Of a stretch of 62,833 nucleotides of DNA, positions 1,897-46,338 are shown piece by piece. This DNA comes from a virus (lineage: Duplodnaviria; Caudoviricetes): IMG/VR virus record IMGVR_UViG_3300033144_005983, positions 1 through 62,833 of that record, one strand, 5' to 3'. How positions within the stretch are numbered: position 1 is the stretch's first letter; the number at the start of each line of letters is the position of its first letter. The translations under genes and the position numbers were made by a program. The notes beneath the pieces are model-generated. The model ran no database searches. It saw only the letters and a program-made list of their open reading frames with translations, and was not told the DNA's origin.

Positions 1897-1905
1897 TAAT
1901 TAACT

Positions 1906-4900
1906 ATGGCAGATCCAACAGAAGCTTTAAGTGGGACCAAAATAGATAAGCAAACTGGATTAACTAAAGATATACCAAATACAGTAAAAACAGTTAATAC
2001 CAGTGCAGATCCTACTGCAGCGCTTACTAATACTACGCAAGGATTAGAAAAAGTAAGAGCTAAACACTTACCTACTGATATAGATGTAGGAGGACAGGCG
2101 TACTCTCTTCAAAAACAAGGTTATGATACATTAGAAAGTTATCAAGAATATAGTGATGACTTAAGAGCTAATTTAGCTGCTCCAGATCCAGAGATGGCTA
2201 ATAGAATGAGAGCTGAACATCAAGGAGTTGGCGAACAACTTGGAACAGCTGCTTATCAATTACCTCTTAATATAGGTATGGGAATCTTAGAAACTGCTGG
2301 TATGATCGGAGATTTCCAAAACTATTTAGGAATGTTTGGAGTTATAGATACTGATTATGACAACTGGTTATCTAAATCTATGCGAGATGCAAGAACAGGT
2401 CTTGCAAAATGGGATCCTATTTATAGAGAAGCTCCTCAAGATGTATGGTCTCCTACAGACTCAGCATGGTGGATAGATAATATATCAGGATTAGTTGAAT
2501 CAGTAGTAGAGTTCGGTGTAACAGGTTTTGGAGTAGGTACAGGTCTTAAAGCTGGAGCAAAAGCTATAGGAATGGCTGCAGCAGCAGGTAGACTTGGAGC
2601 AGGAGCTGCTAATGTAGCAGGAAAAACAGCAATGGGGCTTCAGAAAGGTACTCAATTAATGACTGCAGCTAGTTTAGCATACTCAGAAGGAGTAATGGTA
2701 GGTATTAATGTATATGATACCGTTTATAAAGAATCTTTAGCTGCAGGTATAAAGAAAGAGCAAGCTGAAAAGAATGCTGCTAATGCGGCAACTACTACAG
2801 TTAGAATGAATATGCTTAATACTGCTCTTAATTATACAGCAGTAGGACAACTCTTTAAATCAACTAAATCTTTAAGAAATAGTGTAAGTAACGGATGGAA
2901 TAGGCAAACACTTAAAAGTGGACAAAAAGAAAACTTCTCAGAGTGGTTAACTAGACTTAAAGGAGAACCTAAAGTAATGAAACATCCAGGTATACTTAAA
3001 AAAGTAGGTACACTAGTTAAAGAAGGTTCTTTCGAGGCTGCAGAAGAATTGGTGAATGAAATATCTCAAAGAGAAGGAGAATTAGTAGGAAGAAGAGAAT
3101 CAGGAATTCTTTTACCAGAAGAAAAAGATTCAGATTTTGGAGATAGAGTACTACATGCCGCAACTTCTCCTGAAGGAACACTAGCTATGACAATGGGATT
3201 TATTGGAGGAGTAGGTAATACAATGTTTCTAGGAGGAGTAGATAAAGGACATAGAGCATATCAAAATAGACAACGAGCTAAAAATGGACAAGAAGCTCTT
3301 AAATCTCCTGAAGAATTAGTATCTGAATCCTATACTGCTGAACTAGAAGGACTTATAGATAAAGCAGAAAACCTTGAAAAAATAAATGATAGTCTTTTAG
3401 AAGCAGTAGCTGCAGGAGATGTGAAAAAGATAAAAGCAGCTCAACAGGCTTTAGCTTCAGAAAGTTTATTTTCAGCTTTCCAAAACGGAAGTCCTGACAT
3501 GATGATTGCAATGTTGGAAGAAATTGAAGGCATAGACGATACTACAATGGGACCTGACGGTCAAACAGATGCAGAAAGAGAGGGACTAGAAACAAATAAA
3601 CAATCTAACCAATATTATAAAAAAGTAGCGAGACAGAAGTTAAATGATATAGGTGAACTTCAAAATGATTACGAAGCTGTAATGGATAAGTTCTGGATGG
3701 GAGACCAAGAAACTATGAACTATGCCAGTAAAGTATTTGGCTATAAAGTTTTAATGAAAAGTGCTAAAAATACTTTAGAAGGCTCCGAACAAGATCTAGC
3801 AAAATTTGAATCTCAATTACAAGAAAGACTAACTAATGCGGGTTATGAAGGAGCTCCTGCAAGCTTAATAGAGACTTTATCAGACTATGATGCAAGTACA
3901 GAGGCATATAACGAAGTTCTTGCAGATATTAAAGCTATTGAAGCTATGTCAAGTATGCAAGATGGCAGAACAGTTTATAAAAAAGATAGGGTCTCTTCAG
4001 CTGAACGAACTAAAATTAGACAAAAATACGGTATAAGAGCTACTGAACGAATAGATAAAACTTTAGCTCTTATTAAGAAACAATTTGAAGGAGTAGAAAA
4101 AGAGACCAGAAAAAAAGCAACTGCTATTACTGAAGTTTTTAAAACATTCAGTGAAGATATTCTTTCAGAAGATGGAGAAAGTTTATTAGAAGAATTAGAC
4201 TCACGATCAGGAGATTCAATTAGACAGATATATAATATATTCAAAGAAAGAGGAGAAGGAGAAACAGGAGAAACAAAAGCATTAAGAGATGCCATAGAGA
4301 AATTTAAAAATATTATAAATCTAACTAATGTAGATTATAACAATGTAGTTCAAACTAAAGCTTTTATTGAGCATCAAAAACAAATGGTTGAGGCTTTTCA
4401 AAAAGAATATGACGAGCTTAATAAACCTGGAGCTTTAAATAAATGGTTAAAAGAAGAAAGAGAAAACAAAAAGAATGCGGTTGAAAAAGAAGCTGAAGAA
4501 AGAGCTAAAACTAAAGCAACTGAAAGGGACAAGAAAAATAAAGAAACAGCAGAAAATATAGATAGAGAAGTACAAGCAGAAAATGAAACTGATTTGTCTC
4601 CAGATCCAGAACCAGAAAGAACCTATACAGGTAGTGAAGGAGAAGTGATTACTGAAGAGGAATATAATTCCTATCAAGAAAACCAAGAAGATAGTACAGG
4701 AACAACTCCTACAAAAGAAGATATAGACTCAGGAGAAACTACAGAACTAAACGAAGAGGATGAAAAGAAAGAGCTAGAAAAAATACTAGGAGATCAAAAA
4801 GAACTAGGATTTCTGAAAGAAAATGTACTTTCTTTTGCATATCTCTCACGAGAATATCAATTAACAGAAACAGGTCTTGAAGGTAAAAAAAGATTTACAA

Positions 4901-7900
4901 CATCAACAGGTGATCAAAAAGAAGGAGCACTTCATAATGATTTAGAATCTCATACTAGATTTCAACCAGGAGATGGTCTTTATACAATCGAAATTGCTCC
5001 TAGCGCTGATGCTGAAATATTAACAGAAGCTGAAGTTTCTAAAGGAAAACCTAAAACTACTACATACGGAGAGTGGAAAAAAGATAAAACAGCTGAAGAG
5101 CAGGCCCAAGGAGTTCCTTTAGTAATTAAAGATGCTAAAGGAACTATTGTAGCTTATATCCATGATGGAAGACCTGCCATAGAAGACGGTAAAGAAATAG
5201 TAGATACTAAAGGAGACCCAGTTTCTACATTTGTTTATAGAAGAATAGCACAAAAAACTGAAGACAATGGTGACAATTGGGCAACTCAAACAGAAAAACT
5301 AAAAAGATTTAGAAGAACAGCTATTGAGATGATCAATACTGGTCAAACACCTCAAATTGCAATTACTAGTAAAAGTTATGGAAGTATTATCCGTAATAAA
5401 GTAAAAGGAGAAGTTACAGAAGCACAAGTAAATGATGTAATGGGTCCTAATGTTCAAGTAGGAGTTTCTATTAATGGTACTCTTATGAAAGGAGATACTC
5501 CTATGAATGGACTAGCTATTGGAGGAGAAATTATAAATGATGGTGATCTTCCTAATGGAGCTGTATATGTAATCTTACCAACTCCTGTTGAAGGAAAATA
5601 CTTTGCTGCTTATGTTAGAGCTCCACAAATAGGCGAAATAACAGGCATAAAGACACAATCTACCGAAGTAGATGGAGATGCTTATGCAGGAATGGTAATG
5701 TTAGCTATAGGGATTCATTTTAAAACAATGGCTAATCAAAACTTAACTCCATCTGAAGAAAATGTAGTCCAAAAAATAAAAGACCACATGGATGGGTTGG
5801 ATATTACAAAAAGTGGATACGACTTAAAGAAATTTGTTTCATATTATGTAGTAGATAGGGCTTTTGATAAAGAAGGTAAAAATGCACAAAAAGGAAATAG
5901 AACTAAACCAGGCTATGGCCAACTCCATATAAGAACAGATGACGAAGGAAATCTAAAAACTATTAAATATGGCAGAAAAGAAACAGATCAAACTACAAAC
6001 ATTTCAAGCTGGAAAGCTTTTGAAGACAAAGGACAAGGTCTACTAGATAGTCTTAATGCAACACAACTTTCTGTTAAAGGAGAATTTTTAGGAGTAGAAG
6101 ATGATGTTAATATTCCTATACCAATAGATAATGGAGATGGTACTTATAGCATAGAGACAATCGAAGGAGCAGGTAATGAAATGACTACAGGCTATGAACA
6201 GTTTGTTAAACAAAACTTGAAAACAAAGCTAAAAGGAGAAAAAGTAACACTTTCTGATGGAGTAGAAGAATGGGTATATTTTGATCAGCCTGTAATATCC
6301 TTTACACCATTAACTGACACTCCTCCTAAAGACACTACCAAAGACCCAGAAGAACAAGGAACACCTCCAAAACAAGATCTACCTCCAGATATTGACCTAA
6401 TTCCTGAAATAGACTTAGATCTTTTAGATCAACTAGGAGAAGAAGGAGATGAAGATGGAGGAGTTAAACTAAATGAAATTGATCCTGAAGCAATCGCAGA
6501 AGCAGGAAAATTATTTGATGAACAAACACGAAAACTAAGAGATGAAGGAGAAATTGGTCAAGAATCTCCTGCTATTTCAGATCCTAATGATAGATTAAAT
6601 AAAATTATTCCAGGAGCATTTGTAGGAATGGATGGTAAAAAATTAGTTCAAGCAGCTGATAGTATCTATACATTAATGCTTAATCACTATGATAAAGCTG
6701 TAGGAAAAGGAAAAACTCCAAGTGCAGATAGTTTATTTAGCTATGCTCTACAACAATTAAAATCAAAACAAGGAATATATGGAATTGCTCTTAAACCAGG
6801 ATTCACAGTAGAAGCTCTTCTAGCACAACTAAAAACTGCAGGCAAATCAAAAGCATATTTAAATAATATAGAAGAAGCCTATTCTATTATTATAAAAGAT
6901 GACAAAGGTAACATTGATCTGGATGCTAATAGAGAAAGAGCTAAAGAATTTGGAGTAGTCATAGATAACTTTGACGGTCTTAAAAAGTTAGTAATTGAAA
7001 AATTAGGACGAATTGGAATTAAAATAAATGACAAAAAGTTATTAGAGTATATATATGAAGGAGAAGAAGCTCGAGAAGAATTAGTAGATATAGAAGTTTC
7101 TGATGGACTTACTGAAAGCTATGCGTCTAAAGCTAAATTAAAAACTGATTTAGGAAAAACAGCTCCATGGCAAGTAAGAATTCTTTTTTCAAGATTTCCT
7201 AAAATCAAGACAGCGATTAAAAACGCAAAAGGAGATTATGTATATACAGAAGAAACTAATTACTTAGGAATGAGAACCTTCATTAATTATGAAGATCTAT
7301 ATAATAACTTACTAAGTATTTTAGTTAATAAACCTGAAACATTTCCCGCTATAATTAATGCAATAGACAAACATGCAGAAAATACTTTAAATCCTCAATT
7401 GATTTTCTTAGCAGGATTTCTTAAGAATATAGATTTAAATCCAAAGATTTTACAACCTAATCAACTTAAATCTCAATTAGTTGTAGCCTTTCCTGCCAAT
7501 GCAGAAGTTCAAAGAGTAGTAGCACAGATTACTCCTGATAAAAACGACGGAGGTGGAAGTATGGGTTCTAAACTTATAAACTTTAGTGGAGATACTAGAA
7601 ATGATACTAATCTAATTATTAGTCAATGGGAAAATAACTTAGCGTCTAGTACTGGTGAAACAGGGCTTATTAGTGAAATAGGGGGAAAACTATTTATATC
7701 TCCCACTAAAGCAGCCAATGTTAAAATGATCTATGAGCAGAAAGCCAAAGAGCTTTTAGCTATAAGAGAAGGAAAAGATGATATTAAACGCTTTGGTAAA
7801 AAATTAAATCCAGAAGAAAGAATAGCGGAAATGGCTAGTGGTATTCAGGATATATTTAAACTACTTGGTATAGAACTTTCGCATCCTTTAGCTGTACAAC

Positions 7901-19900: not shown

Positions 19901-22900
19901 CAACTGCTGAAGGAGTTAAACCTTTTTACTCTAATGCAATGATAAAGAAAGCCATCAAAGAAGGCAATGTACAAACTTTAAAAGACCCTGTTGTAATCAA
20001 GGGTAAATTAGGAGTAATGTCAAAAAAGAATGATATATACCTTTCTAAAGATACTAAACCCGCTCCTAAAGTAATCCCTACTATAAGGAATCTTCCTTTA
20101 CATAAAATTGAAAAAGGATATGGATTACTTAATAGTAAAGGAGGTAAAAAACTATTTACCTTTATTAAAGGTGCCCAAGATATTGCAAAAAAAATAGAAG
20201 CTGAAAATCCTGGAGTACAAACAAAAATAGTTCCAGATACTAACAGAGGCTACATAATATTACTTTCAGATACTAGAGGTGATGGAACAATAAGTCAAGC
20301 ATCTCCTATAGTAAGTTCAAACAGATTAGGAAAACTTGATAATGCTACAAGAATAGTAGTTTCATCAATTGAAAATCAAATAGCTAACCTTAATAGAAGG
20401 ATAACTAGAGCCAGATCTCTTGATAAAGATGATAAGAGAGAAGCAATTGCTCCATTAGAGCATAGAATTACTGTACTAAAAGAGCAAATAGATACTATAA
20501 TAGATAAAAAAACCTCACAACAAGTAGTTGATATAGCAAAAGAACAGCTTCAATGGGCAAGTGATCTATTAGCAAAAAATGGAACAATGGCTGATCTTGA
20601 TTCAGTGATTAAAACTATCAAAGCATGGGAAGGAGTATTAGATAGGGTTAGTAAAGATACTGAGTTTAAAAGATATGATTTCCAAGACTTGCCTGCTATA
20701 TTGTTTGATCTTGAAAGACGATGGACTACTTCTGCAAAAGAAATAATAGGATATCAAGTGAATGCTTCATCAGGAATGGATCTCGCTATGGAAGATATTT
20801 TTGGTCCTCAATTTGATCCAGATTGGTTCAGTGCAACTACTCGAGGAGCATATACTTCTAAAGTACCCCTCGTTAGAATAGTAGATAAATGGCTACAAGA
20901 TGCAATCATTAAAGCTAATAATGAATTTACAGGAATAGCAAAAGAAGTAGACAAAGCTATTAAAGAATTAGCAGAAGCTCCTGGAGGAACTCTCATAGAG
21001 AAATTTGATATGATGGCTCAAATAGATGAAGAAGGAAAGAAAACAGGCAATCTAGTTAGAAGAGTAGGAATAGAATACTATAGACAACTAGCAGCACAAC
21101 GTTCAAAATTAGATACTGCCAGAGGTAAAGCAGGAAATGCAAATACAGCTTATAGAAATCATATCAAATGGTTAGGTGACAATACAGTAGGTATAAATAT
21201 AAACATGCTTATTGATGGTAAAGAAGTATATGATCCTCGTATTCCTATGGAAGATCAGAAAGTTAGATCTGCAGAAGAAGTAGCAGAGTATAGAAAAAGT
21301 TTAATAGAAAAACTAGGAGGAGACGAACAAGCTGAAGAAATAGTAGATGCTTTAATTGAAGATCAAAAATTAAGATTTGAGCAATATAAAAACGCAAGAG
21401 AAGAAATAATAATAGGTAACGAAGCTAAGTATCCTTCTGAAAAGAAAGAAGATATCTCTGGAAGATCTAATGCATTAGGATATTGGGAACAAAGAAATAG
21501 TCCCTTTATATACAGTAGTATAACAGAAAAAATATTAGATCCAACTAAATTGAAAAAAGTTGGTGGTGTAACCGAAAATGCTATTCCAAATAAATTTAGT
21601 TTTAAAAGTAATAGAGCTTCTCAATATGTTCCATCAGTACCTGCTTCTAAATTTTGGGATAGTAGGTTTAAGGAGATCATGAAAGATCCCGCATTAAAGA
21701 AATTCTATGAGTTTTATAGTGATAAAATGGAGGATATGTGGAGTGTGCTTCCTGATAATGGAGACATCAGTAAAAACCGAATACCTGATTTAGTCCGTGA
21801 CCTTCAAGAAAAATATACAGACTCTGCTCTTAGAGGAATAATTACAGGAGCACAAGACAGCTTAGTAAGTTTATTAACTGATAGAACTAATGCTGAAGTA
21901 GAATATGGAACTATAGATTCAGGTACAGGAGAAAAAATTCCTTCCATTCCATTATGGATGACAAATGAATCCTTAATGCCCGATCAAAAAAGTTATGATC
22001 TTGGAAAAATACTTAAAGCTTTTGCGGCCATGGCTACTAATTACAAACATAAAGCACGAGTAGAACCTCAAGTTATTCTAGCAAATAGAATGCTAAGAAA
22101 TGTAAAAGAAGCTACTGAAACTGAACGAGGAACTAAACAGATAGATGGACAAGGGCACTTAATGAGAAAAGAAGCAGGACTAACTCGTTCTAAAGCTCAA
22201 TTACAATACACTATAGAAGCCTTACTTTATGGCATAACAAGAGAACCTGGTACTCCTATTAAAATATTAGAAGATGTAGGAAGTGACTTAAAGATGAGTA
22301 CTGAAGCAAAAGAACAGCTACAACACGCAACTGAGGCAGCCGATCAATTTAAAAAAGATTTAGATAGTGGAGTTGAATACCTACAAGCCTACTCTGATTT
22401 TAAGAAGACTGTTAAAGACCTTCCTAAAGGAGTTAAATCGTTTATATATTCTGATTTAAACCAGAGACCTGAATTTTTAAGCTCAGATCCTGTCCGCCCA
22501 GTCTTTGAACTCACAGAAAAGAACAAAGAAAACTATATTAAAGCTCTACGAAAGCATTTTGAGCGTCCTATAACGTACCAAAGTGCAGGTGATGTGCTTA
22601 TAAGCTACACACAAGCCCTTGGAATGGGTTTTAACTGGTTCTCAGCCACTGCAAACCTTGTATTTGGTACATCTGCAGTGTTCAGACATGCAGCAGGAGG
22701 TTCTGAGTACACTACAAAACAAGCTAGACAAGCATTTGGAATAATGATGGCTTCTACTATGAATGGAGGAAAATACTCTCCTACACAATCAGGTAAAAAA
22801 GTAAGAGCTCTAATGGAAAACTTTGATGGTCTTGCTCAGGTAGTTGAATCTATGTATGGAGATGACTCTTCCAGAAGTGAAAACTGGTTATACTTCTTAC

Positions 22901-23853
22901 AAGAACGTTCAGAGTTCTTTGTATACGGACAGATCCTAGTAGCAATGATGCATAAAGAAAAAGCTATTGATAAAAACGGTAATGAAAGAACAGTATGGGA
23001 AGCTTATGATAACGATGGTGACTGGAACGTAGAAGAATTCCCAATTAAAGATAATCCAGGATGGAATAAATTTGCCAAAACAGACAAAGGAAGCGCTGAC
23101 TGGGTTAAATTCAAAAGAAAATACGATGCTACGGCAAAGAAGATACATGGTAACTATGATAGAAAATCTCCAGTACTTGGAAAGAAAGGAGTATTTGGAA
23201 GAATGCTCTTTCAGTTCAGATCTTGGGTTCCTGAAATGTGGTTTGACAGATGGGAAACAGAAAGATTTGATGAAGGTCTTGACCGATATACTAAAGGAAC
23301 ATGGAAAAGCTATGGAGCTGCTATAGAAAAATCAGGAGGAGCATTTGGTTTTGCTAAACTAATGGCTAAACAATTTGGAATGCAACTATTAGCAAAAGAT
23401 TCTCAGGAATTGCTTGAAATGGATGAAGTTGATCAGATCAATATGAGAAAGAATATGGCAGAGATATATTTTATAATGGCAATGATGAGTGCTTTATATC
23501 TCCTTAGTAAAATAGAAATAGAAGATGATGAAGATGAAGTATTTGCAAGTGCAGCTATGACATTAATGTTCAATACATTTAACCGTGTAAATACAGAGAT
23601 AACCTTCTTTATGAATCCAGACGCAATGTTACAACTCACAAGAGGTCAACCTTTCCCTGCATTAGACACACTCGCAGGTATACTTATAGATCTTCCCACA
23701 GCAGTAGTAGATACATTAATGGGAGATGGTATATATGAAAGAGGTGTAAGAGCGGGGCATTCAAAACTTTTAAAAGAATTTTTAGAACTTATGCCATTAG
23801 GAAATCAGTACTATAAATTTCATTATATGACTAATACTAAAATGGCAGGTTAA
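1906..23853 (+). CDS. Giant (7315 aa) virion-packaged RNA polymerase polyprotein with multiple accessory enzymatic domains
   Basis: Uninterrupted ORF. RNAP motifs FRIPLQG (10960) and MGSDFDVDKLF (DFDVD at 11080-11094), as in crAss-like/phi14:2 gp66 RNAP. N- and C-terminal helical and hydrophobic regions resemble phage ejection proteins (e.g. IHGNY..GRMLFQFRSW). Confidence 0.93.
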   Translation: MADPTEALSGTKIDKQTGLTKDIPNTVKTVNTSADPTAALTNTTQGLEKVRAKHLPTDIDVGGQAYSLQKQGYDTLESYQEYSDDLRANLAAPDPEMANRMRAEHQGVGEQLGTAAYQLPLNIGMGILETAGMIGDFQNYLGMFGVIDTDYDNWLSKSMRDARTGLAKWDPIYREAPQDVWSPTDSAWWIDNISGLVESVVEFGVTGFGVGTGLKAGAKAIGMAAAAGRLGAGAANVAGKTAMGLQKGTQLMTAASLAYSEGVMVGINVYDTVYKESLAAGIKKEQAEKNAANAATTTVRMNMLNTALNYTAVGQLFKSTKSLRNSVSNGWNRQTLKSGQKENFSEWLTRLKGEPKVMKHPGILKKVGTLVKEGSFEAAEELVNEISQREGELVGRRESGILLPEEKDSDFGDRVLHAATSPEGTLAMTMGFIGGVGNTMFLGGVDKGHRAYQNRQRAKNGQEALKSPEELVSESYTAELEGLIDKAENLEKINDSLLEAVAAGDVKKIKAAQQALASESLFSAFQNGSPDMMIAMLEEIEGIDDTTMGPDGQTDAEREGLETNKQSNQYYKKVARQKLNDIGELQNDYEAVMDKFWMGDQETMNYASKVFGYKVLMKSAKNTLEGSEQDLAKFESQLQERLTNAGYEGAPASLIETLSDYDASTEAYNEVLADIKAIEAMSSMQDGRTVYKKDRVSSAERTKIRQKYGIRATERIDKTLALIKKQFEGVEKETRKKATAITEVFKTFSEDILSEDGESLLEELDSRSGDSIRQIYNIFKERGEGETGETKALRDAIEKFKNIINLTNVDYNNVVQTKAFIEHQKQMVEAFQKEYDELNKPGALNKWLKEERENKKNAVEKEAEERAKTKATERDKKNKETAENIDREVQAENETDLSPDPEPERTYTGSEGEVITEEEYNSYQENQEDSTGTTPTKEDIDSGETTELNEEDEKKELEKILGDQKELGFLKENVLSFAYLSREYQLTETGLEGKKRFTTSTGDQKEGALHNDLESHTRFQPGDGLYTIEIAPSADAEILTEAEVSKGKPKTTTYGEWKKDKTAEEQAQGVPLVIKDAKGTIVAYIHDGRPAIEDGKEIVDTKGDPVSTFVYRRIAQKTEDNGDNWATQTEKLKRFRRTAIEMINTGQTPQIAITSKSYGSIIRNKVKGEVTEAQVNDVMGPNVQVGVSINGTLMKGDTPMNGLAIGGEIINDGDLPNGAVYVILPTPVEGKYFAAYVRAPQIGEITGIKTQSTEVDGDAYAGMVMLAIGIHFKTMANQNLTPSEENVVQKIKDHMDGLDITKSGYDLKKFVSYYVVDRAFDKEGKNAQKGNRTKPGYGQLHIRTDDEGNLKTIKYGRKETDQTTNISSWKAFEDKGQGLLDSLNATQLSVKGEFLGVEDDVNIPIPIDNGDGTYSIETIEGAGNEMTTGYEQFVKQNLKTKLKGEKVTLSDGVEEWVYFDQPVISFTPLTDTPPKDTTKDPEEQGTPPKQDLPPDIDLIPEIDLDLLDQLGEEGDEDGGVKLNEIDPEAIAEAGKLFDEQTRKLRDEGEIGQESPAISDPNDRLNKIIPGAFVGMDGKKLVQAADSIYTLMLNHYDKAVGKGKTPSADSLFSYALQQLKSKQGIYGIALKPGFTVEALLAQLKTAGKSKAYLNNIEEAYSIIIKDDKGNIDLDANRERAKEFGVVIDNFDGLKKLVIEKLGRIGIKINDKKLLEYIYEGEEAREELVDIEVSDGLTESYASKAKLKTDLGKTAPWQVRILFSRFPKIKTAIKNAKGDYVYTEETNYLGMRTFINYEDLYNNLLSILVNKPETFPAIINAIDKHAENTLNPQLIFLAGFLKNIDLNPKILQPNQLKSQLVVAFPANAEVQRVVAQITPDKNDGGGSMGSKLINFSGDTRNDTNLIISQWENNLASSTGETGLISEIGGKLFISPTKAANVKMIYEQKAKELLAIREGKDDIKRFGKKLNPEERIAEMASGIQDIFKLLGIELSHPLAVQLVKSPKNVLGKVRSKTGGVTNLRQLIAPDGNFAKYLFDTLVVDETIGKGHNVLYKGRDRIVQEVGTGDKMGKIKVDGAWILAKNVEKLATLESKNPFRDLTEGQIGRIRALARAEVRTTGVKVGTGSRNVSNQLLYKYSQLSQFTEQAKLLQIANEYGEAENRSPEVTEAANNLHQLSQMPFQVNSEWIAAFDTFMMQETPPKGLNKNETKRWKKRKERYNKGELLRQVFKVEIVDGLAHGIRRGVAAEIADMTPKEFEFYKIALFQNNGNEKVAKYIYMTPADNTVIPVIHALRKKINLGWNDAAEEGKPGSIISIGLEGQKAAYDIFEAEMLRIASFQKLSTAEQEKVNGYKDGANKFLMFPFLNKEILNKEDIGKLWDGEGNLIIPFGDEQKLEIISIIERNLIASIEEQVADWSNLGIFETFENDKGDRIWNLAGFSKDYMKRMRSKDMTKLTTQTPGITMDDVHHRSIQSAAADYVLNNMFANKEMFQLMSGDPAYYYKGKEGKTLQENLMSTFANLNKRISGVRATGSKGYWANPLIKDNPIHASRATSLKIIIAKDRDVAIKNMDQMIKMNKVIAANFKNNPSTDAQSLTTMGEHLSTLMAYGKIKDTQFQDLSNRYEKQLKALKDIVAARKSKDKASEKQALKELEDNKFTDKEIGEVILQPLKPVYTGFKLEGTARTARAVYLKTSSFPLIPQIVKDLDVSQVLLQLENSGADMMIYETGVKLGASNIQNVFDSKGNMKEDLEFKTEDVIILPRSGYKIQQENPYKGQKDIIRESTQGQKLLFEGLPKVSRNGTDIEALRHKFDSLQKDILDLKFDKFLDDIGAKKTIKTVKNLDGEEYETENVYIEDLSALRDFLVDEALERGYPLNDIMALGLTKVNTFDLPLGFHLAAFRMEPLILSLIKNKILRSELPGQSFIQGSSAGFKGIKEFNKLSAEERGDIAWAEGYNPEEGLSYMVTEDNKVQRAQIILPWTIKGKNGKIADINKYIKKEKGKLTIDTSKLTPELLEIFGFRIPLQGHSSMVTLEIVGFLPSYQGDLAIVPDGITTQMGSDFDVDKLFTYNYWTYELEDGKIVKYGSREHAEDKHRKDQERAAKKAKEKDSKDSEIGIPEDSTEGYARVAVTNEKYTPKFIKDNPDLLFVFGDNMERKGKGGQAIVRDESNTIGLRTKVSPTTKDGAYFYDEFLEDNKKAIDEDITAITKAGFGTQVVFPKGGLGTGLSKLKEKAPKTYEYLKKRLIEEFGFDNDLGTVDLDKIGIPYGNVIIDAETKGLPREEKTVEEVENELQNNMKGLQNKVVQVYNDVMEIPEVVEKALTPLDDAKNEINKTGERLEQIMTRPGTSPLFIAPTTQRDFFFINKDGQTALGVYSLFNTFLAQAQNVDIEFEYAIKNEETGKMENFPLLIKFKGEKGETLVGNRVSDTKLVSKDGLKNEVSAGFQSAGADNANDQALHKLNMESSTFGISLAFMAQGFDERYIGAFANQEAIQLWIDIYNRKSSKVTEDTIMGRTKASEEAFEEVERILLDKAKRDNTVPNPRVALNDQEKLDNVLSLNEMEDMLGKRADQKGTAYWGTQLNILAQFEVITQMGEDLSQAQNVTNTNQPMRHPGKTMLDAIELKDRIKKTVGTGERMVFLKGTEQLIGDVVLGPDGQVDILNPQGLIGTAAKYGELLATKLFGQLYSYESRAYTQALKGIEELSGSTYMPIERKAEVWGDLKQFVNAKVFEQVFGESLSDVRQRLLFDVKSEASTKDEIILAEASMARIIHYLQQTEWGQNSKLLKRLYPRMAEVIGEEPSRLEYMASGNEKIDEPDLLRELYSWLNSTQTIEVEGGRKIVLKDIALDLLKYSFASGGIQNPTNFMRILPYVSLQDMGYAKAIRDVDFKNPDILGPPLTSPFGYPNPSTFTRQYFQHKPYRTKTIVKFDKKNQIKKGDIITLLGGSDEVANGTEPEENKEFVTQVDLIGEDGKGFAYIHFLAYRNNETNKWELYEKIENNQKGKDGKMYTVYHRISTLGTRQDAEYDANEANLLSKNTENLPKTLAPTPESPQVVEQTNNTQNQGLKRAGDGQNEIIAKKDTPIQGVIDAISEPVTGDTQAERQNQRLKNLLSYVARTSGSNAFNRQMATLYSRMLGSLSETPIGLNMYGAVEKGGEVVQLDPDGGILVTGFFGGKFTPKKGYEAAHLDLYQSKKSDYVNTKFSKEEQIEYQNNLILHEFTHVLTSGLATKVTMGKATATEKKFYKNIVKLRDATLDALVKSGPETQIKFRIKGSQDFGTKTLGELFGDNWKDEKTRRDYINKLQDDFKKGEGIPNHYINELLYPLFGERAGQGDIEEFLAGIMTSPTFQIFARSHSIPTGYQQGKNLWEKLIEIFNTLFKSWEKETGITGVKDSILKYGIDQTLQMATLQAEEMAKLKEKKTIEDGEFLEDALEDDVDYSISGPGERIVIDGDDNVEIHARKMYNKQDAEQVFKIIEDIFDRTYGAEHAESDKSGRIRRSMYYGDVEYVYGTGKSEVRRPPNTNVPPALNKVIRDVEKRLGYPEGYFDVNLINEYKDGKQKINFHTDKEPILVDNGRVDPTVVTISFGDTRSMVVKAIRGGKEVSIPMESGVAITMGTRSQLDYLHGIKEEGNKTKRFSITLRHNAVKARQVAETSAQEALTQEELMEQAAGMTAIQQNFTDGSKYQDENGVWKERTMQPQFKGKSAMDLILSGDRTRTTRAKTDIQRMVKEYGLSRISDLKGKIVRMTSKDGRSVFTKITGVHQFTTEYQNQTWQQEGWTKDVTDRLVGDYPIALEFEVVEGTETHTTDPRKTTDEKPKTVEEIQSFFPIRRLDAYTVSELFQGISGVLRLQGAPGVQLKVFGNRVPKGVYTYDNVVQAVLDKLTLRGKYDGLLELLEKENLKEEVEGTTTPTQPAIKTDPTLPTKMADFTNHSGGAKGGDTLWDKIGRGFGVVNHKHYREPGATDVDSDQLKNRGTKPTHLSTEDYQEGQKKATIAARQMGRVAPTHQVRSAYMIRNWAQVKYADAVYAIGTIIPKGTEMKYGKKAKIEQVKGGTGYAVQMAINEGKPVYVYDATQDSWFQWEVKTERFRKTEIPVLTKNFAGIGSRSLSTKEAWAKSEQAISDVYQKTDSLLEQWLAETVYDSPQAIAKGTNIPRTKLFDVNETRTDLSPDPVEFTGVAQELVDYRGTIYRIEVDSTFQKKQVKNHRTDKLVPPGTVIYENVIALGTENYSTPSEPQSTNNSVTINGVTIDTGPIALTEDQTIGLQKMADFFDRKDANAGNAFSLRGYAGTGKTTLVTFFLSYVASKRGTQEKIELSTPTHYANDVLYSVISTAGSHIGLSNVELPRTVDSRLSTAKMIDSNGRVVFSNKYQTQEKIEKGFPYGSVLIIDEASMIKDDFNKAISMLIKKQNMKTIFMGDPLQLPPVGNKQLSDALNHGDHYELTEVKRQEKGNPLMKVLGSIRSNRLSRTDKFEHKTDVNEKGEGIVWTSNMQTFKDTIVEYMGNSAMKSSPLYAKVIAYTNAAVKEYNTLGRRALLGDKVMNGAFQVGEPLTGYAKSGQIDNAGTYVITEQTSYTDEMLVADNPDLNEKIGNTSDAGALVSKITGQRMSELAFTGKLVTVQRRYSAEVEEKLKKENAYPKPFKTFIFDPAAKAEGNIAVLDVLTQIETYKSQIYSDDSLTLREKNKRYAQSFDQLDTIKDQFQIPAERYQAKTASLGGETMSKAEAMKRFKGDFYKGKWVGIKNSNLFQHEKTLDYGYAITAHKAQGSTYTNVLIDWDNMEKVSGRVINDWDGKPYMTESNSLKYVALSRPTTKAIIYSADVVPGEQKTNTLTEDSPASAVGLTGEVGFATGGIDFNELQDLVASPAEVKKALGKEKQEYDDFMTRLDDDTSGEFGQKKEVPIESIAKDAIYTGVFLGKEARKMLLDKFPAKHKNVFMHHSTVQFKPESEDIMNLDFNGHTDLVVTGIVQDDKGQALIVKNPVSKIPVPHITVSTAEGVKPFYSNAMIKKAIKEGNVQTLKDPVVIKGKLGVMSKKNDIYLSKDTKPAPKVIPTIRNLPLHKIEKGYGLLNSKGGKKLFTFIKGAQDIAKKIEAENPGVQTKIVPDTNRGYIILLSDTRGDGTISQASPIVSSNRLGKLDNATRIVVSSIENQIANLNRRITRARSLDKDDKREAIAPLEHRITVLKEQIDTIIDKKTSQQVVDIAKEQLQWASDLLAKNGTMADLDSVIKTIKAWEGVLDRVSKDTEFKRYDFQDLPAILFDLERRWTTSAKEIIGYQVNASSGMDLAMEDIFGPQFDPDWFSATTRGAYTSKVPLVRIVDKWLQDAIIKANNEFTGIAKEVDKAIKELAEAPGGTLIEKFDMMAQIDEEGKKTGNLVRRVGIEYYRQLAAQRSKLDTARGKAGNANTAYRNHIKWLGDNTVGININMLIDGKEVYDPRIPMEDQKVRSAEEVAEYRKSLIEKLGGDEQAEEIVDALIEDQKLRFEQYKNAREEIIIGNEAKYPSEKKEDISGRSNALGYWEQRNSPFIYSSITEKILDPTKLKKVGGVTENAIPNKFSFKSNRASQYVPSVPASKFWDSRFKEIMKDPALKKFYEFYSDKMEDMWSVLPDNGDISKNRIPDLVRDLQEKYTDSALRGIITGAQDSLVSLLTDRTNAEVEYGTIDSGTGEKIPSIPLWMTNESLMPDQKSYDLGKILKAFAAMATNYKHKARVEPQVILANRMLRNVKEATETERGTKQIDGQGHLMRKEAGLTRSKAQLQYTIEALLYGITREPGTPIKILEDVGSDLKMSTEAKEQLQHATEAADQFKKDLDSGVEYLQAYSDFKKTVKDLPKGVKSFIYSDLNQRPEFLSSDPVRPVFELTEKNKENYIKALRKHFERPITYQSAGDVLISYTQALGMGFNWFSATANLVFGTSAVFRHAAGGSEYTTKQARQAFGIMMASTMNGGKYSPTQSGKKVRALMENFDGLAQVVESMYGDDSSRSENWLYFLQERSEFFVYGQILVAMMHKEKAIDKNGNERTVWEAYDNDGDWNVEEFPIKDNPGWNKFAKTDKGSADWVKFKRKYDATAKKIHGNYDRKSPVLGKKGVFGRMLFQFRSWVPEMWFDRWETERFDEGLDRYTKGTWKSYGAAIEKSGGAFGFAKLMAKQFGMQLLAKDSQELLEMDEVDQINMRKNMAEIYFIMAMMSALYLLSKIEIEDDEDEVFASAAMTLMFNTFNRVNTEITFFMNPDAMLQLTRGQPFPALDTLAGILIDLPTAVVDTLMGDGIYERGVRAGHSKLLKEFLELMPLGNQYYKFHYMTNTKMAG
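9300..12400 (+). other. Two-barrel RNA polymerase catalytic core within the giant ORF (boundaries approximate)
   Basis: TDAQ, QPLKPVY, YLKTSSFPL, ETGVKLG (beta-like barrel), then RIP and DFDVD (beta'-like barrel, aa ~3059-3063). Confidence 0.88.
11290..11660 (+). other. Inserted macrodomain-like module in the giant ORF
   Basis: LFVFGDN..RKGKGGQA..VVFPKGGLGTGL..APKTYEYL resembles stand-alone phage macro-like proteins; the fold assignment is an inference. Confidence 0.6.
14250..15130 (+). other. Zincin metallopeptidase domain in the giant ORF
   Basis: LILHEFTHVLT (HExxH at 14557-14571) plus downstream EEFLAG (~14914) as the third ligand. Confidence 0.8.
15270..15845 (+). other. AlkB-family 2OG-Fe(II) dioxygenase domain in the giant ORF
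   Basis: NEYKDG..FHTD (HxD at 15601), VVTISFGDTR, YLHGI (H at 15784), RFSITLR: the complete AlkB signature. Confidence 0.88.
15990..16320 (+). other. ASCH (PUA-like) domain in the giant ORF
   Basis: MDLILSGDRTRTTR (GxKxxT/ExR-type motif), QQEGW, terminal ALEFEVV strand. Confidence 0.7.
16700..17300 (+). other. SLOG-superfamily (YspA/DprA/LOG-like) nucleotide-binding domain in the giant ORF
   Basis: NHSGGAKGGD, RNWAQVKYADAVYA, GGTGYAVQMAINEGKPVYVYD, FAGIGSR. Confidence 0.78.
17680..19380 (+). other. SF1B (Dda/RecD-like) DNA helicase domain in the giant ORF
   Basis: GYAGTGKT (17776), IIDEASM, GDPLQLPPV, LTEVKRQ, YAITAHKAQGSTY, YVALSRP: all SF1 motifs present. Confidence 0.92.
19640..20020 (+). 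other. 2H phosphoesterase (cyclic phosphodiesterase-like) domain in the giant ORF
   Basis: Two HxT motifs, HST (19738) and PHITV (H at 19888), followed by GVKP..SN as in the CPDase domain of fungal-type tRNA ligase. Confidence 0.78.
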
Positions 23854-23939
23854 TGAATATTGCAGGATTTATAATAGCAATGCTAATAGTAATGTGGCTT
23901 ACATATAAAATATTTTGGGATAACGATCAGTACTTATAA
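23853..23939 (+). CDS. 28-aa single-pass membrane peptide (MNIAGFIIAMLIVMWLTYKIFWDNDQYL)
   Basis: ATG overlaps the giant ORF stop (TAATG); hydrophobic run; too short for the ORF track. Confidence 0.5.
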   Translation: MNIAGFIIAMLIVMWLTYKIFWDNDQYL

Positions 23940-26141: not shown

Positions 26142-26647
26142 TTTCTAAATAAATTTATTATTAAATTATTCTCTCCATCTTTATTTGTATATTCTTTAAG
26201 TTCTTCTATCTGAAGCTTTTGTTCTTCTGTTATTAGAAACCTATAAAAATATTTTTCTTCTGCTTTTTTACTTTCAAAAGAAAGAACTACACATTGCTGT
26301 GCTCCTTCTACACCATCTATGCCTTCTTCAACAGCTTTTTTAATAGCATCAACATTATCTACTTTTACTTTAGCATAACAACACTCTGAAGCAAAGCAAG
26401 CATGAGTAGCATCATAGTCATTAATAATAGTATTAACACCATCCGCTATGATCTGTTCACCATTTTGTTGTTCAAACAAATGAGGAGGAATAGGGTGTAA
26501 TTTAAAAATACCGTCTCCAGATTTAACAAATAAAGAAGGAGGTAAATGATTTTTATGCTTTTCATAAGTAGCAAGCACAAACTTAATTACCTTCTTCTGG
26601 AATTCAGAATCTTCACTATTAAGATTATCAAATTCTTCATTTTTCAT
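26138..26647 (-). CDS. Hypothetical protein
   Basis: 169-aa ORF with ATGA overlap with polA. Confidence 0.75.
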   Translation of the reverse strand: MKNEEFDNLNSEDSEFQKKVIKFVLATYEKHKNHLPPSLFVKSGDGIFKLHPIPPHLFEQQNGEQIIADGVNTIINDYDATHACFASECCYAKVKVDNVDAIKKAVEEGIDGVEGAQQCVVLSFESKKAEEKYFYRFLITEEQKLQIEELKEYTNKDGENNLIINLFRK

Positions 26648-43871: not shown

Positions 43872-44405
43872 CTAGCCATTAAAACCTGCAGCTGACTCTG
43901 CTTCCACAGATGCTTCAAGTTTAATATCAGGTGTAGTTTCAGAACTGGTAGCTTCACTCATTAAAGTGTGACCCGCTCTGCTGAACAACTGGACGATGTT
44001 CTCACCTTTCAATGCAACGCAAGTATAAGAAGTAACTTCCCTTTCAGTACCATCCTGAGATGTTACAGCGTAAGCTTCAACTTCTTTTGTTACTATTGCA
44101 CCAGGTAATGCCTTACCAACATAATTTTTGATCATTGAAGGATCTCCTCCTTTCCAGATAGAGTTTCCATTACTATCAAACTGTTGACTGATTACTCTGA
44201 ATCTAGTAGATTGAAATGGATTATCCAAATCTTGGAAAATAGCAAGGTAATACTTTCTACCATCGCTTGTCTCATTGATCTTGCCATTAAGGCCTTTAAT
44301 ACCAGTAGTATCAGAGTCATCTAATACTGTAGCATTTGGATTGCTCGAAAGAGTAATCCCTACCAACTTAATTTGTTGGCCCTCATTTACGAATTCTGCA
44401 CTCAT
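43872..44405 (-). CDS. Hypothetical early protein
   Basis: 177-aa ORF, beta-rich, acidic tail. Confidence 0.8.
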   Translation of the reverse strand: MSAEFVNEGQQIKLVGITLSSNPNATVLDDSDTTGIKGLNGKINETSDGRKYYLAIFQDLDNPFQSTRFRVISQQFDSNGNSIWKGGDPSMIKNYVGKALPGAIVTKEVEAYAVTSQDGTEREVTSYTCVALKGENIVQLFSRAGHTLMSEATSSETTPDIKLEASVEAESAAGFNG

Positions 44406-44563
44406 AATTTAAGAATTTAAAAATTAAAAAATATAAAAAGAAGTTATTAGTATGCATACGCATAGTCTATCTCACCACATAAAGGTTAACTCCATGAGAT
44501 AGATTTCAGGGATAATAAAATCCCTAGGTATTTCAACCTATTCTTGAATGTAACAAATCAATT

Positions 44564-45143: not shown

Positions 45144-45174
45144 TTCATCGGTTTTAAAGGTAAAAAAATAAAAA

Positions 45175-45865: not shown

Positions 45866-45870
45866 CGTAG

Positions 45871-46288: not shown

Positions 46289-46338
46289 CGCCAGTAGCTT
46301 ACTGGATAGTTACGAGGTTTTCGAAATCGTAACAATAC
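46289..46338. repeat. 50-nt double-hairpin motif, copy 1
   Basis: Second copy at 48744-48793; three compensatory base-pair changes. Confidence 0.85.

What the first reader, a model, noticed from the sequence alone, without database searches (positions are those of the whole stretch)
1906..23853. 7315-aa virion RNA polymerase fused to a nucleic-acid repair and counter-defence toolkit
Seen: one ORF holds an RNAP core plus, in order, macro-like, HExxH zincin, AlkB, ASCH, SLOG, SF1 helicase and 2H phosphoesterase motifs, with the catalytic residues apparently intact. Known: crAss-like phages inject a virion RNAP (phi14:2 gp66, about 2200 aa), and phage 'polyvalent proteins' string enzymes together with zincin peptidases. 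Inference: this phage injects a pre-made transcription complex with enzymes that could reverse base alkylation, ADP-ribosylation and cyclic-phosphate damage before any phage gene is expressed. I do not know of this exact domain combination on a vRNAP.
Basis: partly seen in the sequence, partly recalled or inferred. Interest (0 to 1): 0.92.

Follow-up and report, generated by a model that had tools for sequence, protein, structure and literature searches.

The report
Giant phage RNA-polymerase polyprotein with swappable enzymes
One 7315-residue gene of a marine crAss-like phage joins the phage's virion RNA polymerase and its two partner proteins to a set of nucleic-acid enzymes, and related phages carry different enzymes at the same positions.

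Summary
The ORF is real and lies exactly at 1906-23853 (7315 aa, about 818 kDa). It belongs to a crAss-like phage found in seawater and sediment metagenomes.

Significant hits support five modules:
- a phi14:2 gp66-type virion RNA polymerase with an intact DFDVD motif
- AlkB
- a SLOG domain
- a RecD/Dda-like SF1B helicase
- a 2H phosphoesterase

Two more have weaker support. The zincin has a conserved HExxH...E motif, homologous to the known zincin protein next to the vRNAP. The ASCH call rests on a confident model whose nine best PDB matches are ASCH proteins, at borderline scores.

The "macro-like" call fails. That segment is DUF7831, and its confident model matches no solved fold.

The protein fuses three crassvirus cargo proteins and has two variable slots. 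One is a loop just after the catalytic motif; a 95-99%-identical strain lacks the DUF7831 module there. The other lies between the zincin and the 2H domain; a collinear 6647-aa relative carries unrelated sequence there.

Giant vRNAP fusions are already in print, and a RefSeq gut crassvirus already has an RNAP-helicase ORF. This is a new variant of a known kind. The AlkB, helicase, ASCH and 2H set resembles the eukaryotic ASCC-ALKBH3 complex.

The parts
1906..23853 (+). Whole ORF, 7315 aa, about 818 kDa: virion-cargo polyprotein
1906..6276 (+). N-terminal region (aa 1-1457). No known family. By position it corresponds to the cargo protein upstream of the vRNAP (phi14:2 gp078, GenBank numbering).
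   Evidence: No Pfam hit. Collinear with P0002 (60% identity) and P0259 (48%). No similarity to gp078 by BLASTP or phmmer. The correspondence is inferred from position only.
6277..6420 (+). Polar/charged linker (aa 1458-1505), near where the gp078|gp077 gene boundary would map
   Evidence: composition scan; boundary mapping inferred offsets
9019..12789 (+). gp66-type two-barrel vRNAP homology (aa 2372-3628). Catalytic DFDVD at aa 3059-3063 (nt 11080-11094).
   Evidence: 6vr4_A E 2.1e-14. BLASTP to phi14:2 gp077, 1.8e-22 and 5.4e-7, and to FpV4 gp32, 3.5e-54. phrog_16227, 4.1e-48. Motif positions.
11179..11751 (+). Inserted module (aa 3092-3282) holding DUF7831 (aa 3131-3242), between the catalytic loop and the bridge-helix region. 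Its presence varies between strains.
   Evidence: Pfam PF25176 E 1.5e-33. Absent at this site in P0003/P0259. An X1 contig skips 11172-11793 and carries 175 other letters, in frame. Model pLDDT 91.9. No solved fold matched.
14005..14133 (+). Polar linker (aa 4034-4076), near where the gp077|gp076 boundary would map
   Evidence: offsets
14203..15225 (+). Zincin-like region (aa 4100-4440). HEFTH at aa 4218-4222 (nt 14557-14571). Conserved EF at aa 4338-4339.
   Evidence: Motif aligned with phi14:2 gp076 HExxH at 245 and FpV4 gp32 at 4065. No Pfam or PDB hit. The preprint names the zincin domain in the neighbouring protein.
15364..15837 (+). AlkB-type Fe(II)/2OG dioxygenase (aa 4487-4644). H4566-x-D4568, H4627, R4638-x-S-x-T-x-R4644.
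   Evidence: Pfam PF13532 1.1e-18. phrog_21963 3.4e-12. Best PDB match ALKBH3 2iuw_A, 4.3e-6. Motifs.
15895..16323 (+). ASCH-like (PUA-like) module (aa 4664-4806)
   Evidence: AF2 pLDDT 90.0. Foldseek ranks 1-9 are ASCH or ASCH-like, best E 2.3e-3. 91 relatives, mostly inside giant proteins. No Pfam hit.
16681..17625 (+). SLOG-superfamily module with its conserved C-terminal extension (aa 4926-5240). GGAKGGD at aa 4937.
   Evidence: phrog_768 DprA-like 8.8e-5. Atlas 0.90 with DNA_processg_A, LDcluster4 and cpYpsA clusters. Found in 57 of 95 giant homologues.
17629..19395 (+). SF1B (RecD/Dda-like) helicase (aa 5242-5830). Walker A at 5291, DEAS at 5394, GDPLQLPPV at 5422, QGST at 5771, YVALSR at 5810.
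   Evidence: (9kwf_B 2.2e-14)
19612..20115 (+). 2H phosphoesterase (aa 5903-6070). HxT motifs at aa 5945-5947 and 5995-5997.
   Evidence: Pfam tRNA_lig_CPD 3.8e-6, 27 bits against a cut-off of 23. Motifs. No PDB sequence hit. Conserved in P0259 and P0003.
20116..23850 (+). Conserved C-terminal region (aa 6071-7315), homologous to the C-terminus of phi14:2 gp076. Hydrophobic helix at aa 7187-7205.
   Evidence: BLASTP aa 6898-7310 against gp076 979-1417, 3.7e-12. P0259 57% identical over aa 5903-7314. Hydropathy.

Best explanation
This is the virion-cargo, or 'transcription block', polyprotein of a marine crAss-like phage. One ORF fuses the three large cargo proteins that phi14:2 encodes separately. 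In GenBank numbering these are gp078, the vRNAP gp077 (called gp66 in the paper), and the zincin-bearing gp076.

Two slots in this scaffold hold accessory enzyme modules that differ between relatives. Slot 1 is a loop directly after the catalytic DFDVD motif and holds DUF7831. Slot 2 lies between the zincin-like domain and the 2H/C-terminal region and holds AlkB, an ASCH-like domain, a SLOG domain and an SF1B helicase.

Proposed mechanism; every step below is inferred, none is shown:
1. The protein is made late, packed in the capsid and ejected with the DNA.
2. It is either cut at its polar linkers, perhaps by its own zincin, or it acts as one tethered assembly.
3. The RNAP transcribes the early genes.
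4. The RecD/Dda-like helicase supplies the single-stranded template that gp66-type RNAPs use in vitro.
5. The ALKBH3-like AlkB, the ASCH-like nucleic-acid binder and the 2H esterase clean single-stranded template or new RNA. This is the same set of activities as the eukaryotic ASCC-ALKBH3 complex.
6. SLOG, and possibly DUF7831 and 2H, act on nucleotide-derived molecules.

Shown here: the ORF, the homologies, the fusion, the two variable slots and the intact motifs.
For: ORF and context.

vRNAP: 6vr4_A E 2.1e-14 with GSDFDVDK aligned to GSDFDIDK. The fourth motif residue is V, as the preprint says holds for crAss-like RNAPs (I or V; passages).

Fusion of three proteins:
- The C-terminus (aa 6898-7310) matches gp076 979-1417, E 3.7e-12.
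- The HExxH aligns with that of gp076.
- FpV4 gp32 (4287 aa) has its catalytic region at the same offset, 2477 against 2474.
- Polar linkers lie at about the mapped gene boundaries.
- The preprint states that such fusions exist and are probably cleaved.

Virion location of homologues: phi14:2 gp076-gp082 are annotated as structural from MS/MS. crAss001 gp47, gp49 and gp50 were detected in virions (PMC10172136, passages).

Not a chimera:
- P0002 is collinear over aa 1-4811 at 60% identity.
- P0259 (6647 aa, on a 90,316-bp contig) is collinear everywhere except the two slots.
- Contigs of run X1 bridge every junction from the RNAP C-terminus to the C-terminal region: 12951-16086, 16316-17875, 18746-20226 and 20261-22360.

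Slots:
- An X1 contig replaces 11172-11793 with 175 letters, in frame. An X2 contig diverges at 11171.
- P0003 and P0259 lack the module at that site.
- P0259 residues 4271-5239 are unrelated to P0001 aa 4439-5902 and have no Pfam hit at E<=0.01.
- Module order differs among the 95 giant homologues.

ssDNA template: the gp66 preprint.

ASCC-ALKBH3 parts list: PMC11214414 and PMC10076317 (passages).
Against: - No evidence from this phage shows that the protein is packaged, ejected or cleaved.
- No RNA run holding the stretch was listed.
- The N-terminal 2370 aa match nothing in phi14:2, so the claim that it corresponds to gp078 rests on position only.
- The zincin has no profile or structural support.
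- The ASCH call is borderline: E 2.3e-3 and TM below 0.5.
- The helicase is SF1B, whereas ASCC3 is a Ski2-like enzyme. In the human complex TRIP4 (ASCH) and ALKBH3 bind ASCC3 mutually exclusively. The ASCC parallel is therefore a list of activities, not homology of a complex.
- Co-occurrence of AlkB, ASCH, helicase and 2H was not shown to be non-random. With single-sequence searches, AlkB was found in 1 of 95 giants and 2H in 2 of 95.
- X1 may be the sample the window was assembled from, so its contigs may not be independent.
Confidence: 0.65

Rival explanations
1. The cassette is mainly counter-defence and has nothing to do with transcription. SLOG, 2H and perhaps DUF7831 would destroy host immune signalling nucleotides on entry. 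AlkB would reset methyl marks, and the helicase would strip or evade host nucleases. This is what has been proposed for polyvalent proteins.
For: - Iyer et al. 2017 (PMC5512222, passages) propose that 2H domains in polyvalent proteins counter host nucleotide signalling.
- PMC9503650 section 3.4.4 (read) proposes that viral SLOG domains degrade cADPR-like signals.
- Relatives carry NADAR (PF08719, 18 of 95) and PF18760 (4 of 95) in the same proteins.
- A BFVD hit from gut phage cr116_1 is named 'ART-PolyVal-like'.
- The rapid turnover of slot content fits an arms race.
Against: - No anti-defence family was matched directly. The PADLOC hits are helicase look-alikes.
- AlkB's best solved match is ALKBH3, a repair enzyme for single-stranded nucleic acid.
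- This reading and the best explanation do not exclude each other.
Confidence: 0.3
2. The ORF is an assembly chimera, or it is not expressed as one protein. For example, it might be really several genes whose stops were lost through consensus errors, or strains joined wrongly.
For: - The genome held is only this 62,833-base metagenomic contig.
- The population is mosaic. 23-59% of the laid contigs run on into unlike sequence, and shared breakpoints lie at 9359, 13416, 17782 and 20387.
Against: - There are no stops in 7315 codons, against about 607 expected.
- P0002 and P0259, from other contigs, are collinear at 44-60% identity, with the same fusion from the N-terminus through the RNAP and zincin, and from the 2H domain through the C-terminus.
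- X1 contigs bridge each module junction from 12951 to 22360, and X2 contigs cover 12634-15489.
- Composition and GC3 are even across modules.
Confidence: 0.04
3. The accessory modules are decaying passengers, remnants of domain shuffling, and only the RNAP matters.
For: The content of both slots is dispensable in close relatives.
Against: - The catalytic motifs checked are intact in AlkB, the helicase (five motifs) and 2H, and the SLOG glycine-rich loop is present.
- DUF7831 is 88% identical to that of P0002, while its flanks are 64-68% identical.
- The models of DUF7831 and the ASCH-like module are confident.
Confidence: 0.05

Closest known systems
Cellulophaga phage phi14:2 virion RNAP gp66 (PDB 6VR4) with its two neighbouring cargo proteins; crAss001 gp47, gp49 and gp50
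   Same: - Homologous catalytic region with DFDxD and V/I at the fourth position.
- A zincin-like HExxH directly downstream.
- A homologous C-terminal region.
- The same genome position, between the structural genes and the oppositely oriented replication block.
   Different: - phi14:2 has three separate genes (1797, 2180 and 1421 aa); here they are one 7315-aa ORF.
- About 190 aa holding DUF7831 are inserted after the catalytic loop.
- About 1460 aa of enzymes sit between the zincin and 2H domains.
- The N-terminal third shows no detectable similarity.
Polyvalent proteins of phages and conjugative elements (Iyer et al. 2017, PMC5512222), seeded on N4-like vRNAPs
   Same: - Many unrelated enzyme domains in one virion-associated polypeptide.
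- A zincin-type peptidase motif.
- A 2H phosphoesterase as a listed component.
- Shuffled architectures among relatives.
   Different: - The anchor here is the two-barrel crAss-type RNAP. The N4 virion RNAP is related to single-subunit RNAPs (title of a reference in that paper).
- The words AlkB, ASCH and SLOG do not occur in that paper's main text (0 occurrences each).
Giant vRNAP-block proteins of other crAss-like phages: RefSeq cr118_1 gp14 (4946 aa, annotated 'exonuclease V'), P0259 (6647 aa), P0012 (7385 aa), FpV4 gp32 (4287 aa)
   Same: - RNAP plus accessory modules in one ORF.
- cr118_1 has GSDFDIDK followed by a C-terminal SF1 helicase.
- P0259 has the same scaffold, including the 2H and C-terminal regions.
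   Different: - None has the same cassette.
- 0 of 366 matching phage records cover 80% or more of aa 4451-6070.
- P0259 lacks DUF7831 and carries unrelated sequence in slot 2.
Eukaryotic ASCC-ALKBH3 alkylation-repair complex (ALKBH3, ASCC3 helicase, ASCC1 2H phosphodiesterase, TRIP4 ASCH)
   Same: The same four kinds of activity occur together. The AlkB module's best solved match is ALKBH3 (papers).
   Different: - The helicase is SF1B, not Ski2-like.
- The parts are domains of one chain, not subunits.
- No homology of the assembly is implied.
- TRIP4 and ALKBH3 bind mutually exclusively in the human complex.

Membership tests
crAss-type (gp66-like, two-barrel) virion RNA polymerase | Sequence homology to gp66 across the catalytic DPBB region | tested here: met
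   6vr4_A E 2.1e-14, query 2658-3067 against chain 1014-1383, with two further stretches. BLASTP 1.8e-22.
crAss-type (gp66-like, two-barrel) virion RNA polymerase | DFDxD catalytic motif with I or V at the fourth position | tested here: met
   DFDVD at aa 3059-3063. The criterion comes from the preprint passages.
crAss-type (gp66-like, two-barrel) virion RNA polymerase | Gene lies in the cargo/transcription block of a crAss-like genome, next to the oppositely oriented replication block | tested here: met
   The replication genes on the minus strand start at 24240. Terminase and portal lie at 55543-59987. The layout is the same in phi14:2, FpV4 and cr118_1.
crAss-type (gp66-like, two-barrel) virion RNA polymerase | Protein present in virions, with RNA synthesis activity | not testable with these tools
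   Only homologues are documented.
Polyvalent proteins (Iyer et al. 2017) | 2 to 15 unrelated effector domains in one polypeptide, shuffled among relatives | tested here: met
   At least 7 modules. Their order and content vary among the 95 homologues.
Polyvalent proteins (Iyer et al. 2017) | Zincin-like metallopeptidase (MPTase) or another processing peptidase | tested here: inconclusive
   HExxH plus a conserved downstream EF motif, but no profile or PDB hit.
AlkB family (Fe(II)/2OG dioxygenase) | Profile match above the curated cut-off, plus HxD...H and RxSxTxR residues | tested here: met
   PF13532, 68.6 bits against 31.2. H4566, D4568, H4627, R4638 and R4644.
ASCH domain (PUA-like) | Profile match to PF04266 | tested here: not met
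   No Pfam hit at E<=5 for aa 4640-4940. A relative, P0232, scores E 0.0081, below the cut-off.
ASCH domain (PUA-like) | ASCH/PUA-like fold | tested here: inconclusive
   Model pLDDT 90.0. Foldseek ranks 1-9 are ZmASCH, PH0355 and TTHA0113, followed by YTH and EOLA1. Best E is 2.3e-3, probability 0.99, TM 0.38/0.44, and there are 0 hits at E<=0.001.
Macro domain | Macro fold or profile match | tested here: not met
   The segment is DUF7831. The confident model has no macro domain among the 50 listed PDB matches and 0 hits at E<=0.001. All 9 significant BFVD matches are DUF7831 proteins or proteins with no functional name (one is named 'NTF2 domain-containing protein').
SLOG superfamily | Profile or feature match to SLOG families, plus the glycine-rich loop | tested here: met
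   phrog_768 DprA-like E 8.8e-5. Atlas first hit 0.90 with 181 features; DNA_processg_A, LDcluster4 and cpYpsA clusters. GGAKGGD at aa 4937. No Pfam SLOG family at E<=0.1.
SF1B (RecD/Dda-like) helicase | Profile matches and helicase motifs I, II, III, V and VI | tested here: met
   AAA_30 3.8e-16, UvrD_C_2. phrog_325 2.3e-56. TIGR01447 and TIGR01448. Motifs.
2H phosphoesterase | Two HxT/S motifs and a profile match | tested here: met
   PF08302, 27 bits against a cut-off of 23, E 3.8e-6, covering only the second half of the profile. HST at aa 5945 and HIT at aa 5995. No PDB sequence hit.

The most novel reading that the evidence does not exclude
The injected RNA polymerase of this phage lineage may serve as a scaffold with two in-frame slots that swap modules. 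The slot between the zincin and the 2H domain would evolve like a defence island, but inside one ORF. In this phage it would carry a phage counterpart of the eukaryotic ASCC-ALKBH3 machine: AlkB, helicase, an ASCH-like domain and 2H, all tethered to the polymerase. That would give transcription-coupled unwinding and dealkylation of template and transcript at the moment of entry. The second slot, right beside the catalytic loop, takes or loses DUF7831 between strains that are 95-99% identical. That suggests a module which tunes or shields the active site.
Probability: 0.2. Interest if true: 0.75.

Novelty: new variant of a known kind. Interest (0 to 1): 0.5.

Why it matters
It would show that crassvirus virion RNA polymerases are also delivery vehicles for changeable sets of enzymes, as was proposed for N4-type polyvalent proteins.

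It offers a compact natural system for testing whether a helicase and an AlkB dioxygenase work together with a polymerase that prefers single-stranded templates.

The strain-level gain or loss of a folded domain next to a polymerase active site is a clear case of domain-level variation inside an essential enzyme.

It also gives DUF7831 a context. The family is widespread in phages and giant viruses, has no assigned function, and matched no solved fold here.

Practically, it flags misleading annotation. RefSeq cr118_1 gp14 is named 'exonuclease V' but holds the vRNAP.

Tried and rejected
Macro-like reading of aa 3131-3242: rejected.

Searches that found nothing:
- Pfam at E<=5 on six pieces gave nothing credible for the N-terminus, the zincin region, the ASCH region or the C-terminus.
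- NCBIfam and PADLOC added only helicase and AlkB look-alikes.
- PDB sequence searches of the 2H and zincin segments found nothing meaningful.
- An IMG/VR scan with aa 4451-6070 found no locus.
- phmmer and BLASTP of the window's flanking ORFs and of the N-terminus against the phi14:2 and FpV4 cargo proteins found nothing.
- No tRNA in the window.

Other checks:
- The window ends join in frame. A 62.8-kb circle would lack capsid and tail genes, so I treat this as chance.
- Co-occurrence of cassette modules in 246 stored proteins was too insensitive with single-sequence queries to test the ASCC parallel.
- Compositional signs of recent transfer of modules: none.
- No RNA holder was listed among the 12 runs.
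- One X3 record appears to link 12376 to 21387 with 40 letters between (table 5c). It did not reach the joint table and I did not interpret it.

Literature:
- Searches found no paper in the held library that describes AlkB, ASCH, SLOG or DUF7831 on a crAss-type vRNAP.
- Yutin et al. 2018 is not held.
- Figures are not held and supplements are closed. Fig. 3 and the supplements of Yutin 2021 (PMC7886860) may already draw such domains.
- Names for PF18760 and PF18762 (ART-PolyVal, Kinase-PolyVal) are recalled, not taken from a call. NADAR as the name of PF08719 is also recalled; a JGI source name describes one of its carriers as 'YbiA (DUF1768 family)'.
- By eye, the P0259 cassette shows an FGSN..G.HG.GAA-like motif and a NADAR-like motif. 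That is recall only, and Pfam gave no hit.


Full report
THE OBSERVATION. The window has one ORF at 1906..23853 on the plus strand: 7315 codons with an ATG start and no internal stop. The other two frames of that stretch hold 718 and 917 stops, and random codons of this composition would give about 607 stops. The product is about 818 kDa.

WHAT KIND OF GENOME. The held genome is this 62,833-base contig alone. It has no terminal overlap and no tRNA.
- Downstream on the minus strand lie a family A DNA polymerase, an ATPase, an exonuclease, a primase and a helicase.
- On the plus strand, at 55543-59987, lie a large terminase (phrog_6681, 1.3e-125) and a portal (phrog_6547, 9.7e-174).
- The nearest deposited phages are the Flavobacterium psychrophilum FpV4 group (about 30% identity over the RNAP catalytic region) and Cellulophaga phage phi14:2, a member of Crassvirales.
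- Twelve public runs from ten studies hold part of the stretch. By their records they are seawater or sediment metagenomes, apart from one run whose organism is coded.
This is a marine crAss-like phage, probably of a Bacteroidota host. The host is inferred from the hosts of the nearest isolates.

THE MODULES. Profile and sequence searches give the following.
- A gp66-type virion RNAP: PDB 6vr4_A, E 2.1e-14, aa 2658-3067 against chain 1014-1383, with GSDFDVDK aligned to GSDFDIDK. Weaker stretches lie at aa 2372-2501 and 3293-3516. BLASTP to phi14:2 gives 1.8e-22 and to FpV4 gp32 3.5e-54.
- DUF7831 at aa 3131-3242 (1.5e-33).
- AlkB at aa 4514-4644 (PF13532, 1.1e-18, above the cut-off; PHROG 'alkylated DNA repair', 3.4e-12). 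Its best solved match is human ALKBH3 (4.3e-6). The HxD...H and RxSxTxR residues are present.
- A SLOG-type module at aa 4930-5084 (PHROG DprA-like, 8.8e-5). The atlas first hit scores 0.90 with 181 shared features, and the clusters carry DNA_processg_A, LDcluster4 and cpYpsA.
- A RecD/Dda-like SF1B helicase at aa 5242-5830, with five motifs intact.
- A 2H phosphoesterase: PF08302, 27 bits against a cut-off of 23, with two HxT motifs 50 residues apart.

THE THREE UNCERTAIN CALLS.
(a) 'Macro-like'. I aligned the segment with 57 stand-alone homologues and folded it (pLDDT 91.9). Foldseek against the PDB found no match at E<=0.001. The best was a tyrosine phosphatase at E 0.035 and TM 0.27, and no macro domain is among the 50 listed. 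Against BFVD, the nine significant matches are DUF7831 proteins or proteins with no functional name. They come from giant eukaryotic viruses, Rhizobium and Caulobacter phages, and gut crAss-like phages cr272_1, cr130_1 and cr131_1; one has only an identifier. The macro reading is rejected. The domain is a small alpha/beta fold of unknown function.
(b) ASCH. Pfam finds nothing. A whole-library search found 91 relatives, mostly inside giant proteins. A model built on 29 sequences is confident (pLDDT 90.0). Its nine best PDB matches are Zymomonas ASCH, PH0355 and TTHA0113, followed by YTH domains and EOLA1. The best E is 2.3e-3 and TM is below 0.5. A weak ASCH profile hit in one relative (0.0081) and a weak atlas lead (0.80) point the same way. 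I call it ASCH-like, probable but not proven.
(c) Zincin. There is no profile or PDB hit. The HEFTH at aa 4218 and a downstream EF motif align with phi14:2 gp076 (HExxH at 245), FpV4 gp32 (4065) and many giant homologues. The gp66 preprint says the protein next to the vRNAP carries a zincin-like protease domain (passages).

ANATOMY: A FUSION WITH TWO SLOTS. phi14:2 encodes three consecutive structural proteins of 1797, 2180 (the RNAP) and 1421 aa.
- The C-terminus of the window's protein (aa 6898-7310) matches the C-terminus of the third protein (3.7e-12). The HExxH matches that protein's N-terminal part.
- FpV4 gp32 (4287 aa) has its catalytic region at the same offset as here.
- Polar linkers at aa 1458-1505 and 4034-4076 lie about where the phi14:2 gene boundaries map (the mapping is inferred).
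- A full-length relative, P0259 (6647 aa, on a 90,316-bp contig), is collinear over aa 13-3091, 3283-4438 and 5903-7314 at 44-57% identity. It has only 23 residues where this protein has the 191-residue DUF7831 insert. It has 969 unrelated residues, with no Pfam hit, where this protein has AlkB, ASCH-like, SLOG and helicase.
- P0002 (5268 aa; its match to the helicase stops about 40 residues before its end, so it is probably cut short by the end of its contig, which is my inference) is collinear over aa 1-4811 at 60% identity and then runs straight into the helicase, without the SLOG module.

OTHER GIANT HOMOLOGUES. The search returned 95 giant homologues. Segments of this protein found the following with BLASTP at E<1e-4: RNAP catalytic part in 93, SLOG in 57, helicase in 47, DUF7831 in 17, ASCH-like in 5, 2H in 2, zincin in 2 and AlkB in 1. 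phmmer gave lower counts: 61, 57, 29 and 11 for the first four. The positions of the modules differ from protein to protein. Only P0002 has DUF7831 at the intra-RNAP site, and there it is 88% identical against 64-68% for its flanks. The precomputed Pfam lists add AlkB in 5 of 95, PF08719 in 18, PF18760 in 4 and PF18762 in 7.

POPULATION EVIDENCE. I laid contigs of four runs on 3900-23899.
- X1 contigs at about 93-99% identity bridge every junction from the RNAP C-terminus to the C-terminal region: 12951-16086, 16316-17875, 18746-20226 and 20261-22360. X2 contigs cover 12634-15489.
- One X1 contig joins 11171 to 11794. It skips 622 letters and carries 175 others, a difference of 447 letters or 149 codons, so the frame is kept. 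An X2 contig diverges at the same place.
- A strain that is otherwise near-identical therefore lacks the DUF7831 module at this site.
- A short linker at 17137-17197 is replaced in three runs. Shared loose ends at 9359, 13416, 17782 and 20387 show a mosaic population.
- X1 may be the source sample, so its contigs are not independent. The collinear relatives are.
A chimeric assembly is very unlikely.

WHERE THE INSERT SITS. In the gp66 preprint the catalytic motif is at 1361-1365, the bridge helix at 1529-1559 and the trigger loop at 1598-1636 (passages). The PDB chain index runs 14 ahead of this numbering, by my count from the alignment. The insert lies after about native residue 1369 and before about 1470. 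That is between the catalytic loop and the bridge helix.

HOW IT PROBABLY WORKS. Shown: the fusion, the modules, the intact motifs and the variable slots. Inferred from homologues: the protein is packed in the capsid and ejected, as for phi14:2 and crAss001, and the RNAP transcribes the early genes. [quoted passage not shown] An attached 5'-3' SF1B helicase is then a natural supplier of template. An ALKBH3-like AlkB, which acts on single-stranded DNA and RNA, is a natural cleaner of that template or of the transcripts. ALKBH3, a helicase (ASCC3), a 2H enzyme (ASCC1) and an ASCH protein (TRIP4) also assemble in the eukaryotic ASCC system. That parallel is one of activities, not of homologous complexes. 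Following published proposals, SLOG and 2H could instead or in addition remove immune signalling nucleotides. Whether the chain is cut at its linkers by its own zincin is unknown.

WHAT IS KNOWN AND WHAT IS NEW.
Already in print or in public records:
- RNAP genes reach about 6000 aa.
- Polyvalent proteins were described around N4-type vRNAPs, with zincin and 2H domains.
- P0012 (7385 aa) comes from a source that includes NCBI.
- RefSeq cr118_1 gp14 (4946 aa, named 'exonuclease V') holds GSDFDIDK and a C-terminal SF1 helicase.
- In the prototype crAssphage, the best match to this helicase is a separate gene annotated as a putative DNA helicase.
Not found in the searchable literature:
- a description of AlkB, ASCH, SLOG or DUF7831 modules on crAss-type vRNAPs
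- the two-slot scaffold
- the strain-level insertion beside the catalytic loop
- the ASCC-like composition
Figures and supplements of the Yutin papers could not be seen.

VERDICT. This is a new variant of a known kind and of moderate interest.

Noticed in passing
window 11172-11793: A contig of run X1 replaces this 622-nt stretch (the DUF7831 module) with 175 other letters, keeping the frame. A contig of run X2 diverges at the same point. This is domain-level presence/absence variation inside the RNAP among strains that are about 95-99% identical.
   Followed up: partly
window 17137-17197: A 59-nt linker at the end of the SLOG module is replaced by 65 other letters in contigs of three runs (X1, X2, X3). 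It is a small hypervariable in-frame patch.
   Followed up: no
window 59984-62833 and 1-1896: The 3'-open ORF at the window's end and the 5'-open ORF at its start join in frame without a stop. A 62.8-kb circle would lack capsid and tail genes, so this is probably chance, or the contig was cut from a larger genome.
   Followed up: partly
window 44405-51976: This stretch has no ORF of 150 aa or more, and GC skew changes sign near 50 kb where the coding strand switches. It may be an early-gene or origin region.
   Followed up: no
window 24240-26647 (minus strand): The family A DNA polymerase match (633 aa) covers only positions 667-1230 of a 1445-position PHROG profile. A 169-aa ORF overlaps its start by 4 nt. 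The polymerase may be split or lack its N-terminal part.
   Followed up: no
L003 (NC_055872.1) 1-13647: RefSeq cr118_1 gp14, 4946 aa, is annotated 'exonuclease V'. It contains the crAss vRNAP catalytic motif GSDFDIDK and a C-terminal SF1 helicase, so the product name hides the RNAP.
   Followed up: partly
proteins P0227, P0247, P0216: Small proteins pair the ASCH-like module with AlkB (P0227) or with SLOG families YAcAr and cpYpsA (P0247, P0216). This hints at a recurrent functional link among these three modules outside giant proteins.
   Followed up: partly
BFVD hits: DUF7831 occurs in giant eukaryotic viruses (Yasminevirus, Hyperionvirus, Tupanvirus) as well as in Caulobacter and Rhizobium phages and gut crassviruses. 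It is a widespread viral domain whose model matched no solved structure here.
   Followed up: no
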